The position numbers are program-made. Positions 30,001 to 33,000 of a stretch of DNA of 64,000 bases are shown here, piece by piece (within the stretch, counting starts at the first letter, position 1; each line of letters begins with the position of its first letter). Origin of the DNA: Leucoraja ocellata (Eukaryota). The DNA lies in contig JAWMAR010000391.1 in the NCBI GenBank assembly GCA_036785375.1, forward strand, positions 1,178,001-1,242,000, given 5' to 3'.

Positions 30001-33000
30001 TTTATTGATAAATATAATTTTATATTGAACTGAACCAAAAAAAAAATCATGATTTGGTAATATTACAATAAACTATTATGTAAGAATTGCACTTTCAGTA
30101 CCTCCTGTCAGACAATGTTAATGGAAGCCAACCTTTCCTTTGCAGCCATTTTTGAATATATTGTTTTAGTTAATCTCCTTTTAAACTGAGAAATATAAGG
30201 CAACAAAAAATACATTGCTCCAAAAAAATTATTGGAGCCCTTACAATAACATCAAAGAGTTGGTTCTTAAACCATAAAATGCTGTAAACACTTGGCAGCT
30301 TAGATTGCATCAGTGGGAAAAGAAACAAGAGCTAGGTTTCATGTCAGAGACACTTCATCAGAACTGGTAAGGAGACAAAAGAAGTTTGTTAAGTTGGGGG
30401 GGGGGGGGGGGGGCAGGGAGACATATCTGATAGCATAAAACTAGAGTGACCATGGGGATAAACTGTAAACACGGTTATCTGGCCAATGAGTCAACGAGAA
30501 TAATTAGAGAATTACCGCATAGACAAAAGAATACAAGAGTTATAAAGAGTTAGTGCTTGGACTCGGTGATGAAGCTCCTTTTGTTGGGAAGGCAAAGTTC
30601 TTTATTTCTCGGTAGGTTGAGTTGCATTGCACTCATGCGATTGGCACTAATCTGAAGCCAGAGGCTGCCATGTTCCTTAATCCAAACTGGACATTTTCAC
30701 TTGTTTTTACCTCAGAAAAGGTTCAGCATACAACTGCAGAGGCACTTCTTCAGGATTAAAAGTTTCAAATCTTTGGAGAATGCCTGGCCAAAATATGCAG
30801 CTGTCTAAATCAAATTGACATAGTGATTCACTCAAAATCACTATGGCAATTTATGTCTAACTTTGAAATCACTGGAATCCACGCCAAGAGAATTGGGAAC
30901 TGCTATAAAGCTATACCGTTTGTTTTGTTGCAATTTTGCAGTGTGAATGATAGATGGAATTAGAAATCAAACACTAAACAAATGGCTGGAAAAGGCAGAA
31001 GAGCAATAAATGACAGTCAGCACACTTGGCTCTGCTCCTCTTGTCAGGTGTAAGAGACCAGATTTGTAGCCATGTCCCCCTGACGACTGTTTGCAAGAAA
31101 GATGTCCAACTGTAAGCCCCTCTCAGAACACGTGGAAGAGCAAAAAAAAAAAAACGCCCAGGAAGTATTGGAAGTACTAGGACAAGAGGAGAGTGATAAA
31201 TATTTTACCATTAAAGTTTGATCATGATCTGGAACTCACTACCGGGAAGGATAGCAACTTTTATCGTATTTAAATGTCCTTGGACATGTGCCAGGAGAAC
31301 CTGATCTCAAGGCAAGAGACTAAAGGATGTACTGAAGGATTCGACTGATGAAAAAGACGCGCTGAATAGCCTAGGGTTTTAAATTTTCCATGATTCGATT
31401 CGTTTATCTGCAAATGTAAAATGCTAAATGCATGCAAATGGAAAAAAAAGTCACAGTAAAGGTCTGAAATAAAAACTATATTATAGACGGGCATATTACC
31501 ACAGAAAATTATTTTTAAATAAGCNNNNNNNNNNNNNNNNNNNNNNNNNNNNNNNNNNNNNNNNNNNNNNNNNNNNNNNNNNNNNNNNNNNNNNNNNNNN
31601 NNNNNNNNNNNNNNNNNNNNNNNNNNNNNNNNNNNNNNNNNNNNNNNNNNNNNNNNNNNNNNNNNNNNNNNNNNNNNNNNNNNNNNNNNNNNNNNNNNNN
31701 NNNNNNNNNNNNNNNNNNNNNNNNNNNNNNNNNNNNNNNNNNNNNNNNNNNNNNNNNNNNNNNNNNNNNNNNNNNNNNNNNNNNNNNNNNNNNGTTATAT
31801 ACCATTCTCTTCCAAAATCTGCCATTGAAAGAAAAAGGGAACATTTGTCTTCACTGTCTTACTATAGTAACTAATACAGAAATGTACGGGGGCAGAAAGT
31901 CAAAGCGCGAGTAAATCGTGAATTCTCTTCTTATCCGACGTAGTGTTCAGGGAGCCGTTACGATACATCCCACCGGCTTGGAGCGCCTGCGAGAACGACT
32001 GCGACAGCGGTTTGTAGACAGAGGGTGCAATGTCACAAGTCGGCTCATTGGATCCATAATCGGCAGAGGTTGTTCTGAACAGCGGATTCTGGGGTTTCAC
32101 GAATGGAGCCGGGGATTGTGGCGACGTTGGGATCTTTTCCATGCAGGAAAAGACAGGGTTTCCAGGGTTCGCACAGGGAATCCACAGCTTATTTTTATCC
32201 TTTGTCGTTGGAGGGCGGACGGGAATAGGATCGTCGCATCTCGTTTCCTTTTTATCCTCAACATGTGGAGCATAGGATTGCGTGAGATCACCACTTGCGT
32301 CTTTGCAATCAAGGCCTGGTTTTACGTCGTGACATATGGAATCCAATGGAACTATTAAAGAAGTGGAAGGGTTGAAATCATCACGCAACGTATCTCCCAA
32401 AGGCTCCCCTGGAGTGAAACAGTAGTTGTCACAGATGGAGTCCTTAATGCAACCAACAGCTGGAGCGATAGGTGTGCTGAAGTCGTCGCAGACTGAGGTT
32501 CTAAATCCATCCATTCCAGTGTTTGGCGCACAGGGATCATCATACGCGGAGTAATCGAACTCCGCCTTTGGAGCAACGGGTCGATTGTTCGCTTCGCACT
32601 CTTCAGATTCATTATTTGGGATGGGTAGCGGGTTTTGACCATCACAAGTCACAGCATCAGAATCGGGCTTTGAAGCGATGAACTGGTTGAGACAGTCGAA
32701 CTCGCTGTCCTGAAGCAGGGCCGTACGAGTCGGAGATGAATTGAGATCCTTCGGCGGCTCATTAGATTCCGGCTTTGGAACAAAGGGCTGCTTGAAGTTG
32801 AAGTCGTCACATTCTGGTTCTTTGAACTGGACCCTTCGAGCAGGCGATGGGACGTGACAGTCAGCCATGGTGATGCGGTGCGATCTTCTTCTCTTACCGA
32901 GGGCTTTCTCCGGCGCCCTGCCGACCACAGGCGGGCCAGTGGGTTCCCTCGCCGAGTAATGGCTCCTCACTCCGGCGCCTCTGTCCCTAATTGCCCCACT

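What the first reader, a model, noticed from the sequence alone, without database searches (positions are those of the whole stretch)
32179..32868. PIERCE2 with a ~230-aa N-terminal array of degenerate ~17-aa Cys/Asp/Pro repeats
Seen: an uninterrupted 322-aa ORF whose PIERCE-like domain starts only at residue 231. Upstream are about 12 units anchored at C20-DDFN, K40-DLN, F57-DCLN, C75-DGQN, C91-EANN, Y109-DD, C127-DDF, C146-DNY, R162-DDFN, C179-HD, G193-DL and C211-DD, most followed by Pro-rich spacers (spacing 14-20 aa). Established: human PIERCE2 is only about 120 aa and is a microtubule inner protein that pierces the doublet wall and helps dock outer dynein arms. Inference: a lineage-specific extension. 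The repeats are diverged at DNA level yet have no stops, which suggests an old expansion kept by selection. It may act as a periodic tether along the axoneme, or in Cys-mediated metal binding or crosslinking (e.g. in sperm flagella).
Basis: partly seen in the sequence, partly recalled or inferred. Interest (0 to 1): 0.75.

Follow-up and report, generated by a model that had tools for sequence, protein, structure and literature searches.

The report
Skate PIERCE2 with repeat-built N-terminal tail
This is the skate version of the cilium protein PIERCE2, carrying a 229-residue, disordered, acidic tail built from about a dozen decayed copies of an 18-residue unit, a tail that sharks and rays share and bony vertebrates lack, and whose job is still unknown.

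Summary
On the minus strand, one uninterrupted ORF (ATG 32868, stop 31900-31902) encodes 322 aa. Residues 230-322 are a PIERCE2 module (Pfam PF14892, 51.7 bits; best solved relative is a PIERCE2 chain, E 2.8e-16).

- **Distribution:** Residues 1-229 are an extension found in all 9 long relatives retrieved, 8 of them named sharks, rays and skates. It is absent from the 119 short PIERCE2 proteins of bony vertebrates listed.
- **Repeats:** Shark orthologues show a clear 18-aa period. The window protein alone does not: 825 of 1000 shuffles reach its signal. However, 9 of its 12 proposed units match a profile built only from non-orthologous shark units.
- **Properties:** The tail is acidic, rich in Cys and Pro, and predicted disordered. 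It evolves much faster than the PIERCE module but keeps 18 invariant positions.
- **Conserved motif:** Its best-conserved element is an N-terminal RVxF-type motif.

In mammals the PIERCE N terminus lies inside the A-tubule on CFAP53, so the tail is probably luminal. Its function is inferred, not shown. I rate it a new variant of a known kind, of moderate interest.

The parts
31903..32868 (-). Complete coding sequence of the PIERCE2 orthologue: 322 codons in one uninterrupted ORF. The stop codon is at 31900-31902.
   Evidence: It is collinear end to end with the predicted proteins of 8 named elasmobranchs, so no intron interrupts the CDS.
32182..32868 (-). N-terminal extension, aa 1-229. It is acidic (net charge -20) and contains 13 Cys, 29 Asp and 29 Pro in 228 aa. 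It is predicted disordered.
   Evidence: Composition. AlphaFold2 on alignment A1 gave mean pLDDT 37.5 and no secondary structure in aa 1-291. No Pfam match lies outside aa 244-313.
32824..32838 (-). RVxF-type motif (aa 11-15, Arg-Arg-Val-Gln-Phe) inside unit 1. It is the best-conserved element of the tail.
   Evidence: A10, R11, Q14 and F15 are invariant and V13 nearly so. The strict pattern [KR][KR][VI]{FIMYDP}[FW] occurs in 10 of 10 elasmobranch proteins, against 116 of 20000 shuffles of the window extension.
32788..32841 (-). Repeat unit 1 (aa 10-27)
   Evidence: 10.0 bits against a profile of non-orthologous shark units; 0/500 shuffled segments reach it.
32734..32787 (-). Repeat unit 2 (aa 28-45), weak
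   Evidence: 2.3 bits; 21/500 shuffled segments reach it.
32677..32733 (-). Repeat unit 3 (aa 46-64), recognisable only by orthology
   Evidence: The profile gives no hit. In A1 it aligns with shark unit 3, and F57-D58 sits in the Cys-Asp column.
32623..32676 (-). Repeat unit 4 (aa 65-82)
   Evidence: 5.0 bits; 4/500.
32575..32622 (-). Not shown to be a unit.
   Evidence: The profile gives no hit. Sharks have gaps in these columns.
32521..32574 (-). Repeat unit 6 (aa 99-116), in a skate-only insertion
   Evidence: 9.0 bits; 1/500. These columns are filled only in the skate sequences.
32467..32520 (-). Repeat unit 7 (aa 117-134)
   Evidence: 11.0 bits; 0/500. S125 and C127 are invariant.
32413..32466 (-). 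Repeat unit 8 (aa 135-152)
   Evidence: 13.7 bits; 0/500. D143 is invariant, and C146 and D147 nearly so.
32359..32412 (-). Repeat unit 9 (aa 153-170), with the most conserved core
   Evidence: 11.1 bits; 0/500. R162, D163, N166 and P167 are invariant.
32320..32358 (-). Repeat unit 10 (aa 171-183)
   Evidence: 4.4 bits; 8/500. C179 is invariant.
32272..32319 (-). Repeat unit 11 (aa 184-199), recognisable only by orthology
   Evidence: 0.4 bits; 87/500, not significant. It aligns with a shark unit, and C188 and Q197 are invariant.
32218..32271 (-). Repeat unit 12 (aa 200-217)
   Evidence: 4.6 bits; 4/500. A200 and E208 are invariant. The unnamed 115-aa sister protein P0011 starts in this unit.
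31903..32181 (-). PIERCE module (aa 230-322). The Pfam PF14892 match is aa 244-313, which is window 31930-32139.
   Evidence: A profile of alignment A2 run on the six-frame translation finds only this locus in the window (137 bits).
32869..33750 (-). CpG-island-like 5' flank, presumed to be the promoter and 5' UTR. The Kozak-like ACCATGG lies at 32865-32871.
   Evidence: GC 0.652 and CpG observed/expected 0.88. The CDS itself has 0.95-1.1, and the flanks 0.28-0.40. The transcription start site was not determined.

Best explanation
SHOWN. The ORF is the skate orthologue of PIERCE2, encoded in one exon that lies within a CpG island. Its last 93 residues are the ordinary PIERCE module. Its first 229 residues are a tail shared by sharks, rays and skates, and absent from the bony-vertebrate PIERCE2 proteins retrieved. 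The tail is built from about 10-12 copies of an 18-residue unit, A-[RPQ]-K-V-[EQH]-x-K-D-S-V-C-D-D-[LF]-N-[PLQ]-S-F. The unit is still crisp in sharks and has decayed in batoids. Skates carry one or two extra inserted units. The tail is acidic, rich in Cys and Pro, and predicted disordered.

INFERRED. The C-terminal module works as in mammals. [quoted passage not shown] In mammals the PIERCE N terminus lies in the lumen on CFAP53, so the tail most likely also starts there. I take it to be a flexible, multivalent luminal tail. Its short conserved patches would make repeated weak contacts with luminal partners (CFAP53/MNS1, the tubulin inner surface or other inner proteins) within the 48-nm repeat in which PIERCE2 occurs once. 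Those patches are the N-terminal RVxF-type motif, the Cys-Asp-Asp cores, and the Arg-Asp-Asp-Phe-Asn-Pro core of unit 9.

I hold the identity and the repeat architecture at about 0.95, and the luminal multivalent-tail mechanism at about 0.35.
For: Identity:
- Pfam PF14892 scores 51.7 bits against a cut-off of 27.
- Solved PIERCE2 chains give E 2.8e-16 to 2.9e-12, against 4e-08 or weaker for chains named Piercer of microtubule wall 1 (one chain named Pierce1 gives 5.5e-09).
- The tree puts the protein next to Rhinoraja (support 97/88), inside an elasmobranch clade (96/90) that sits among named PIERCE2 proteins.

Clade-wide tail:
- 9 of 9 near-length relatives have it.
- Of 119 hits among 1.84 billion representatives, 115 match only aa 208 onward, 3 are elasmobranch long forms and 1 is spurious.
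- 119 of the 120 best profile hits are bony-vertebrate proteins of 101-195 aa.

Repeats:
- The 18-aa period is significant in 5 of 5 sharks, with 0-16 of 1000 shuffles reaching it.
- 35 shark units define the consensus.
- 9 of 12 window units pass the test that leaves out orthologous units.

Constraint:
- 5 of 200000 shuffles are stop-free.
- 18 extension positions are invariant.

Disorder: mean pLDDT 37.5.

Topology and precedent:
- Passages of PMC8595878 state that the PIERCE N termini bind CFAP53 and that the conserved C-terminal regions pass through the wall to CCDC114/151. They also state that algal FAP182 carries a large N-terminal domain ahead of the PIERCE-like part.
- Solved CFAP182A is 173 aa with the PIERCE match at aa 101-168.
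Against: - No experiment or transcript was seen for this species. The tail's location and partners rest wholly on analogy with mammals.
- The tail diverges fast (36-43% identity against 73-82% for the module), its length varies from 181 to 231 aa, and there are 43-64 gapped columns between the skate and the sharks and rays. This fits a loosely constrained region.
- The window protein shows no significant periodicity on its own (825/1000 shuffles). The same is true of the other batoids, 4 of 4.
- 3 of the 12 proposed units fail the profile test.
- Net charge ranges from -20 to +1 across species, so acidity is not conserved.
- An 18-aa unit has no obvious match to the 8-nm tubulin repeat.
- dN/dS is untested.
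Confidence: 0.45

Rival explanations
1. PP1-docking tail. [quoted passage not shown] The long PIERCE2 would then be a PP1-targeting subunit fixed to the doublet at the dynein docking site, with the acidic repeats acting as spacer or secondary contacts.
For: - The strict pattern [KR][KR][VI]{FIMYDP}[FW], as quoted in passages of PMC9600092, occurs in 10 of 10 elasmobranch proteins. It lies at residue 11 and/or 42-46, or at residue 45 in the longer ORF call P0002. It occurs in 116 of 20000 shuffles of the window extension.
- A10, R11, Q14 and F15 are invariant, although the tail is only 36-43% identical overall.
- The motif lies in predicted disorder, as is typical of PP1 partners.
- Four sharks carry the very pentapeptide Arg-Lys-Val-His-Phe that PMC9600092 gives as the PP1-binding site of IIIG9/PPP1R32.
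- PPP1R32 is itself a 48-nm-periodic protein of the A-tubule lumen in bovine sperm (passages of preprint 10.1101/2022.09.29.510157).
Against: - The pattern is short, and I noticed it post hoc.
- The ten proteins are orthologues, so they count as one event.
- Among 224 other PIERCE homologues, 2 carry the motif (P0048 and P0094, which are related to each other). That is about the chance rate.
- A profile of elasmobranch unit 1 does not recognise their N termini.
- The motif is positions 2-6 of the repeat unit itself, so its conservation may serve another contact.
- PP1 inside the A-tubule lumen has not been shown.
- No PP1 sequence was available here to test binding.
Confidence: 0.15
2. Cys-based crosslinking or metal binding. 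The recurring Cys-Asp-Asp cores form disulfides or bind Zn2+ and stiffen the sperm flagellum.
For: - The window tail has 13 Cys in 228 aa.
- Position 11 of the unit is Cys in 23 of 35 shark units and is followed by Asp in 31 of 35.
- C127, C179 and C188 are invariant and C146 nearly so.
- Elasmobranch sperm flagella have clade-specific accessory columns beside the 9+2 axoneme (passages of PMC11856307), so clade-specific flagellar proteins are expected.
Against: - Only 3-4 of the 13 Cys are conserved.
- The tail Cys count varies from 7 to 13 between species.
- Position 11 is Arg, Ser or Tyr in 12 of 35 shark units.
- No known metal-binding family matches.
- The link to accessory columns is only a shared taxonomic range.
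- The expected luminal location argues against contact with outside structures.
Confidence: 0.12
3. Tolerated passenger. The tail is an old tandem expansion that now drifts as a disordered appendix. Selection acts only against stops and frameshifts, because the only start codon for the essential PIERCE module lies upstream of the tail.
For: - Divergence is fast, with indels and unit gain and loss.
- Periodicity has been lost in 4 of 4 batoids.
- The last Met before the PIERCE module is M119, so the module cannot be made from this exon without reading through at least half of the tail.
Against: - 18 positions are invariant, clustered in the same unit positions in different units.
- The N-terminal motif and the unit-9 core are conserved across the shark-batoid split.
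- Over that time a neutral 690-nt frame would be expected to be shortened by deletion or by a new downstream start. This last point is my inference.
Confidence: 0.2
4. Annotation artefact. The upstream 229 codons are 5' leader, and translation starts elsewhere.
For: One species has a model labelled 'isoform X1', so other isoforms may exist.
Against: - The frame is open and collinear in 9 other sequences from sharks, rays and skates.
- The start is in an ACCATGG context and is the first in-frame ATG after an upstream stop.
- 5 of 200000 shuffles stay open.
- There is no Met between M119 and the module.
Confidence: 0.04

Closest known systems
Vertebrate PIERCE2 (C15orf65/CCPG1OS), as solved in doublet-microtubule structures (chains 7ung_G, 7rro_G, 9cpc_5G and 8i7r_N)
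   Same: The C-terminal 93 residues align over nearly the whole solved chains (aa 221-318 against 17-113 of 121, E 2.8e-16). They share the Cys-x-Asn-Pro-Gly-Asn-Pro-Val-Phe-Ser-Cys block and the Thr-Thr-Ser-x-x-Tyr-Gly block.
   Different: The solved chains are 120-122 aa, with about 20 residues before the module; here there are 229. The elasmobranch C terminus also ends differently from the ...Asn-Leu-Gln-x-Thr-Leu tail common in bony vertebrates.
FAP182 / CFAP182A of Chlamydomonas and Tetrahymena
   Same: These are PIERCE-like C-terminal modules preceded by extra N-terminal sequence. According to PMC8595878, FAP182 has a large N-terminal nucleotidyltransferase domain. CFAP182A is 173 aa with the match at aa 101-168. 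They set a precedent for N-terminal add-ons to this module.
   Different: Their add-on is a folded domain or unrelated sequence, not an 18-aa repeat array. No similarity to the elasmobranch tail was found.
PPP1R32 / IIIG9 (PP1 regulatory subunit 32)
   Same: It is an inner protein of the A-tubule lumen with 48-nm periodicity. It is largely unstructured, and its PP1-binding site is an RVxF pentapeptide identical to the one in unit 3 of four sharks.
   Different: There is no sequence relationship beyond the pentapeptide. The skate protein in the window keeps only the unit-1 version of the motif. PP1 binding is untested here.
Unnamed long PIERCE homologues P0048 and P0094 (259 and 253 aa)
   Same: They have a long Cys- and Pro-containing N-terminal extension ahead of a PIERCE module, with a strict RVxF match at residue 7.
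   Different: Profile comparison aligns only the PIERCE module. The unit-1 profile does not match them. They fall with the outgroup sequences in the tree. I read their extension as independent. Their organisms are unknown.

Membership tests
PIERCE1/2 family (Pfam PF14892, PIRC1_2) | Match to the family profile above the curated cut-off | tested here: met
   51.7 bits against a cut-off of 27, E 9.7e-14, aa 244-313 on profile positions 29-102 of 103.
PIERCE2 rather than PIERCE1 | Closer to PIERCE2 than to PIERCE1 sequences, and grouping with named PIERCE2 orthologues | tested here: met
   Chains named PIERCE2 give E 2.8e-16 to 2.9e-12. Chains named Piercer of microtubule wall 1 give 4e-08 to 6.1e-05, and one chain named Pierce1 gives 5.5e-09. 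NCBI names the Heterodontus orthologue pierce2. In the tree the elasmobranch clade sits with named bony-vertebrate PIERCE2 proteins, but that joint branch has only 88/85 support and the outgroup rows are unnamed.
PIERCE2 | SNYG motif [ST]-N-x-x-[ILVY]-G of the tubulin-binding module (PMC10973386, passages) | tested here: inconclusive
   T266, T267, S268, Y271 and G272 are invariant in the 10 elasmobranch sequences. The Asn position of the published consensus is Ser here, as it is in most PIERCE2 sequences of alignment A2.
PIERCE2 | Small protein of about 120 aa with a short N terminus that binds CFAP53 | tested here: not met
   The protein is 322 aa with 229 aa before the module. This concerns size, not homology. 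CFAP53 binding could not be tested.
PIERCE2 | [quoted passage not shown] | not testable with these tools
   This needs cryo-EM or localisation data from elasmobranch cilia or sperm.
PIERCE2 | Conserved gene neighbourhood. The head-to-head arrangement with CCPG1 in mammals is recalled, not taken from any call. | not tested
   No vertebrate genome collection or CCPG1 sequence was available. Pfam on 43 long ORFs of the window found only a reverse-transcriptase fragment.
Tandem-repeat protein region | Internal periodic similarity beyond chance | tested here: met
   Met through relatives: 5 of 5 sharks are significant at lag 18, and 9 of 12 window units pass against non-orthologous shark units. Not met by the window protein alone (825/1000 shuffles).
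PP1-interacting proteins with an RVxF docking motif | [KR][KR][VI]{FIMYDP}[FW] in a disordered region | tested here: met
   The motif is at aa 11-15 of the window protein, and 10 of 10 elasmobranch proteins have at least one match. pLDDT is below 50 there. A motif match alone does not make the protein a member.
PP1-interacting proteins with an RVxF docking motif | Physical binding to the PP1 catalytic subunit | not testable with these tools

The most novel reading that the evidence does not exclude
In sharks, rays and skates, PIERCE2 has become a phosphatase-targeting inner protein. Its PIERCE module nails it into the doublet wall under each outer dynein arm docking site. The tip of its long repeat tail docks PP1 through the conserved RVxF motif, placing a phosphatase at a fixed 48-nm address inside the axoneme. 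With about 12 units of 18 residues, a tail that meanders at about 4 nm per unit could span most of one 48-nm repeat. That length is my own arithmetic, not a measurement.
Probability: 0.12. Interest if true: 0.7.

Novelty: new variant of a known kind. Interest (0 to 1): 0.45.

Why it matters
PIERCE proteins are the only known proteins that thread through the doublet wall and couple the 48-nm inner pattern to the 24-nm dynein docking pattern (PMC8595878). Everything known about them comes from roughly 120-aa forms.

A whole vertebrate clade with a form nearly three times longer shows that the luminal end of PIERCE2 can carry a large add-on. It also offers a natural experiment on what that end can recruit.

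The conserved RVxF-type motif gives a cheap, direct test: peptide binding to PP1. The clean 18-aa shark units give defined probes for luminal partners.

I found no paper that mentions PIERCE2 together with elasmobranch, shark or cartilaginous fishes in the held library. The single hit for 'shark' is a veterinary abstract volume, seen as a listing only. The proteins do exist as unnamed or 'uncharacterized' automatic models in public databases, so the sequences themselves are not new.

Tried and rejected
1. **Repeat born from the edge of the PIERCE module.** I suspected that the unit's Cys...Asn-Pro-Ser-Phe derived from the module's Cys-x-Asn-Pro-Gly-Asn-Pro-Val-Phe. The shark repeat profile gives no positive score on that block in any of the 10 elasmobranch proteins. 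Not supported.
2. **Homology of the tail with the long N termini of P0048 and P0094.** hhalign aligns only the module. The unit-1 profile scores 0.8 and 0.2 bits, values reached by 15 and 33 of 1000 shuffles. Not supported.
3. **P0102 (407 aa).** It matched aa 35-77. It is a four-fold repeat protein of a different kind that shares a short Pro-x-Asp-Leu-Asn-Ser-Ser string. I treated it as spurious.
4. **ESM Atlas.** It returned no usable hit for aa 1-228. For P0048 it returned only sub-0.9 leads to other inner-protein families.
5. **'Shorter' protein search with aa 205-322.** One candidate, none scored, so it was uninformative. The profile search replaced it.
6. **The listing of cluster members for ten unnamed hits.** This could not be run because the database was switched off. 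The organisms of P0011, P0048 and P0094 stay unknown.
7. **Other features in the window.** Rfam and tRNA scans found nothing. There is no second PIERCE locus or repeat-coding stretch in the six-frame translation.
9. **Complex prediction.** None was run, because no partner sequence (CFAP53, tubulin, PP1) was available and I make no binding claim that a job could test.

Not checked:
- Orthologous DNA, and therefore dN/dS and synteny.
- Holocephalan and lamprey PIERCE2.
- Any transcript evidence.
- The supplements of PMC8595878 (Table S2, Methods S1), which may say which PIERCE2 residues were modelled and so bear on the topology argument.

No spliced model was needed. The CDS is one ORF, so no exon joining was done.
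Full report
**What is in the sequence.**

The feature lies on the minus strand. A stop-to-stop frame spans 31900..33009 (369 codons). The first in-frame ATG after the upstream stop is at 32868 and gives a 322-residue protein, P0001. Its context is ACCATGG.

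Five of 200000 shuffles of those 690 nt stay free of in-frame stops, and the other two frames of the strand hold 4 and 22 stops.

The gene sits in a CpG-island-like block:
- The 5' flank 32869-33750 has GC 0.652 and CpG observed/expected 0.88.
- The CDS has 0.95-1.1.
- The flanks have 0.28-0.40.

The CDS is one uninterrupted ORF, collinear with its relatives.

A masked N run (31525-31793) begins 107 nt downstream of the stop codon. I left it alone.

**Identity of the C-terminal part.**

- Pfam PF14892 (Piercer of microtubule wall 1/2) matches aa 244-313 with 51.7 bits against a cut-off of 27.
- Among solved structures, 11 distinct sequences match at E of 1 or better.
- The best four are PIERCE2/C15orf65 chains of 120-122 aa (E 2.8e-16 to 2.9e-12). 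They align from aa 221-230 to aa 318.
- PIERCE1 chains and the ciliate CFAP182A/B follow at 5.5e-09 or weaker.

**Distribution of the extension.**

A near-length search (177-564 aa) found 9 proteins among 579 candidates, all with the extension:
- one unnamed 98%-identical ORF call (P0002);
- Rhinoraja longicauda (73% identical);
- Heterodontus, Carcharodon, Chiloscyllium, Rhincodon and Scyliorhinus (sharks);
- Mobula and Hypanus (rays).

P0002 starts 34 codons further upstream, at a position where the window has Val. I take that to be an alternative-start ORF call, not a real N terminus.

An exhaustive phmmer scan of 1.84 billion representatives gave 119 hits at E of 0.001 or better:
- 3 are the elasmobranch representatives, and they are the only ones that cover the tail;
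- 1 (P0102) is a spurious match of aa 35-77 to an unrelated repeat protein;
- the other 115 match only aa 208 onward.

A profile of short forms (alignment A2) found 221 proteins at E of 1e-5 or better among 1619 candidates. Of the 120 listed, 119 are 101-195 aa. Their named members come from teleosts, bowfin, gar, sturgeon, reedfish (a bichir relative), frogs, a caecilian, birds, reptiles and echidna. The only long one is Hypanus.

In a tree of the module, the window protein pairs with Rhinoraja (97/88) inside an elasmobranch clade (96/90). An unnamed 115-aa protein, P0011, is the sister of that clade (99/95) and has only about 22 residues before the module. That is the position expected of a holocephalan orthologue, but its organism is unknown.

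The window thus comes from a skate. The tail is at least as old as the shark-batoid split.

**The repeats.**

Laid out in rows of 18, the Heterodontus protein shows ten clean units plus an eleventh that runs into the module.

An ungapped autocorrelation test gives these results:

| Group | Result at lag 18 | Shuffles reaching it |
|---|---|---|
| Sharks (5 of 5) | z = 3.6 to 8.6; further peaks at 34-36 and 52-53, a three-unit block | 0-16 of 1000 |
| Batoids (4 of 4) | nothing significant | window protein: best z 1.9, 825 of 1000 |

Thirty-five shark units give the pattern A-[RPQ]-K-V-[EQH]-x-K-D-S-V-C-D-D-[LF]-N-[PLQ]-S-F.

A profile built from Heterodontus units alone finds seven units in the window protein (sum 40.1 bits; 0 of 300 shuffles reach it). 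Orthology could inflate that result. So for each proposed window unit I rebuilt the profile from shark units that do not align with it:

| Window units | Shuffled segments reaching the score (of 500) |
|---|---|
| aa 10-27, 117-134, 135-152, 153-170 | 0 |
| aa 99-116 | 1 |
| aa 65-82, 200-217 | 4 |
| aa 171-183 | 8 |
| aa 28-45 | 21 |
| aa 184-199 | 87 (fails) |
| aa 46-64, 83-98 | no hit (fail) |

- Nine sit in the shark Cys (or Arg/Ser/Asp)-Asp-Asp columns.
- Anchor 40 aligns only loosely.
- Anchor 91 lies in a batoid-only insertion and anchor 109 in a skate-only insertion.

Tandem Repeats Finder sees nothing in the CDS. No other repeat-coding or PIERCE-coding stretch exists in the window.

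**Properties and constraint.**

- The window tail has 13 Cys, 29 Asp, 13 Glu and 29 Pro in 228 aa, with net charge -20.
- Across species the tail is 181-231 aa long, has 7-13 Cys, and has net charge from -20 to +1.
- AlphaFold2 on the ten-sequence alignment gives mean pLDDT 37.5 and no secondary structure in aa 1-291. This is as expected for an inner protein that folds only on its partners.
- Identity between the skate and the sharks and rays is 36-43% in the tail, with 43-64 gapped columns. It is 73-82% in the module.
- Even so, 18 tail positions are invariant in all ten sequences. They include A10, R11, Q14, F15, S125, C127, D143, R162, D163, N166, P167, C179 and C188.

Constraint therefore looks real but patchy. 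dN/dS could not be computed because no orthologous DNA was within reach.

**Where the tail should sit.**

Passages of PMC8595878 state three things:
- They recur once per 48 nm.
- Algal FAP182 carries a large N-terminal domain ahead of the PIERCE-like part.

Passages of PMC10973386 place the SNYG module of PIERCE1/2 on the inner tubulin surface.

By analogy, the elasmobranch tail starts in the A-tubule lumen. It remains an inference; I could not see that paper's supplements, which list the modelled residues.

**A conserved short motif.**

The most conserved stretch of the tail, aa 10-16, contains Arg-Arg-Val-Gln-Phe. That fits both RVxF definitions quoted in PMC9600092.

- The strict pattern occurs in 10 of 10 elasmobranch proteins, at residue 11 and/or 42-46, or at residue 45 in P0002, the ORF call that starts upstream.
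- It occurs in 116 of 20000 shuffles of the window tail.
- It occurs in 2 of 224 other PIERCE homologues.
- Four sharks carry in unit 3 the same pentapeptide that PMC9600092 reports as the PP1-binding site of IIIG9/PPP1R32.
- A preprint places PPP1R32 in the A-tubule lumen of bovine sperm with 48-nm periodicity (passages).

Points against giving this much weight:
- I found the pattern post hoc.
- The ten proteins are one lineage.
- The 2-of-224 rate equals chance. Those two proteins (P0048, P0094) are related to each other and are not detectably homologous to the tail.
- The motif is simply positions 2-6 of the repeat unit.

I keep PP1 docking as a rival and as the boldest reading, not as the main one.

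**Verdict.**

Selection is only partly shown, and the functional ideas are untested.

The best reading is an ordinary PIERCE2 module carrying a disordered, multivalent, probably luminal tail specific to elasmobranchs, and possibly to all cartilaginous fishes.

- **Novelty:** a new variant of a known kind. The sequences exist as automatic 'uncharacterized' models. I found no paper linking PIERCE2 with elasmobranchs, sharks or cartilaginous fishes.
- **Interest:** moderate, 0.45.

Noticed in passing
window 38051-38473 (+): This ORF fragment matches reverse transcriptase (Pfam RVT_1, E 1.2e-08). It is presumably a decayed retroelement. It was the only Pfam hit among 43 long ORFs of the window.
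   Followed up: no
window 33016-33067: A 12-nt microsatellite (4.3 copies, 97% matches) lies about 150 nt upstream of the start codon, inside the CpG-rich 5' flank.
   Followed up: no
window 31525-31793: The only N run of the window begins 107 nt downstream of the stop codon, probably in the 3' UTR. The 112 nt scanned beyond the stop codon hold no AATAAA or ATTAAA. I left the run unfilled.
   Followed up: no
window 35700-36300 and 35523-35549: A second CpG-rich block (GC 0.58, CpG observed/expected 0.95) lies 3 kb upstream of the gene on the other side of its promoter. It is preceded by nine consecutive Asn codons, which is a trinucleotide run. It could be the promoter of a neighbouring gene. 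The 226-codon frame there has no Pfam match.
   Followed up: partly
window 34750-35249: This is a strongly purine-skewed stretch on the plus strand (GC skew 0.45, AT skew 0.25).
   Followed up: no
proteins P0048 and P0094 (not in the window): These are two unnamed PIERCE homologues of 259 and 253 aa, 48% identical to each other. Each has its own long Cys- and Pro-containing N terminus that starts with a strict RVxF match at residue 7. They group with the outgroup sequences in the tree.
   Followed up: partly
window 31903-31935 (aa 312-322): The elasmobranch proteins end shortly after the conserved Arg-x-His-Asp. They lack the ...Pro-Asn-Leu-Gln-x-Thr-Leu tail seen in most bony-vertebrate PIERCE2 proteins.
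   Followed up: no
shark orthologues P0005, P0007, P0008: Autocorrelation peaks at lag 52 exceed those at lag 18 (z 5.9-8.2 against 4.4-5.5). This suggests that a three-unit block was duplicated after the 18-aa unit had multiplied.
   Followed up: partly
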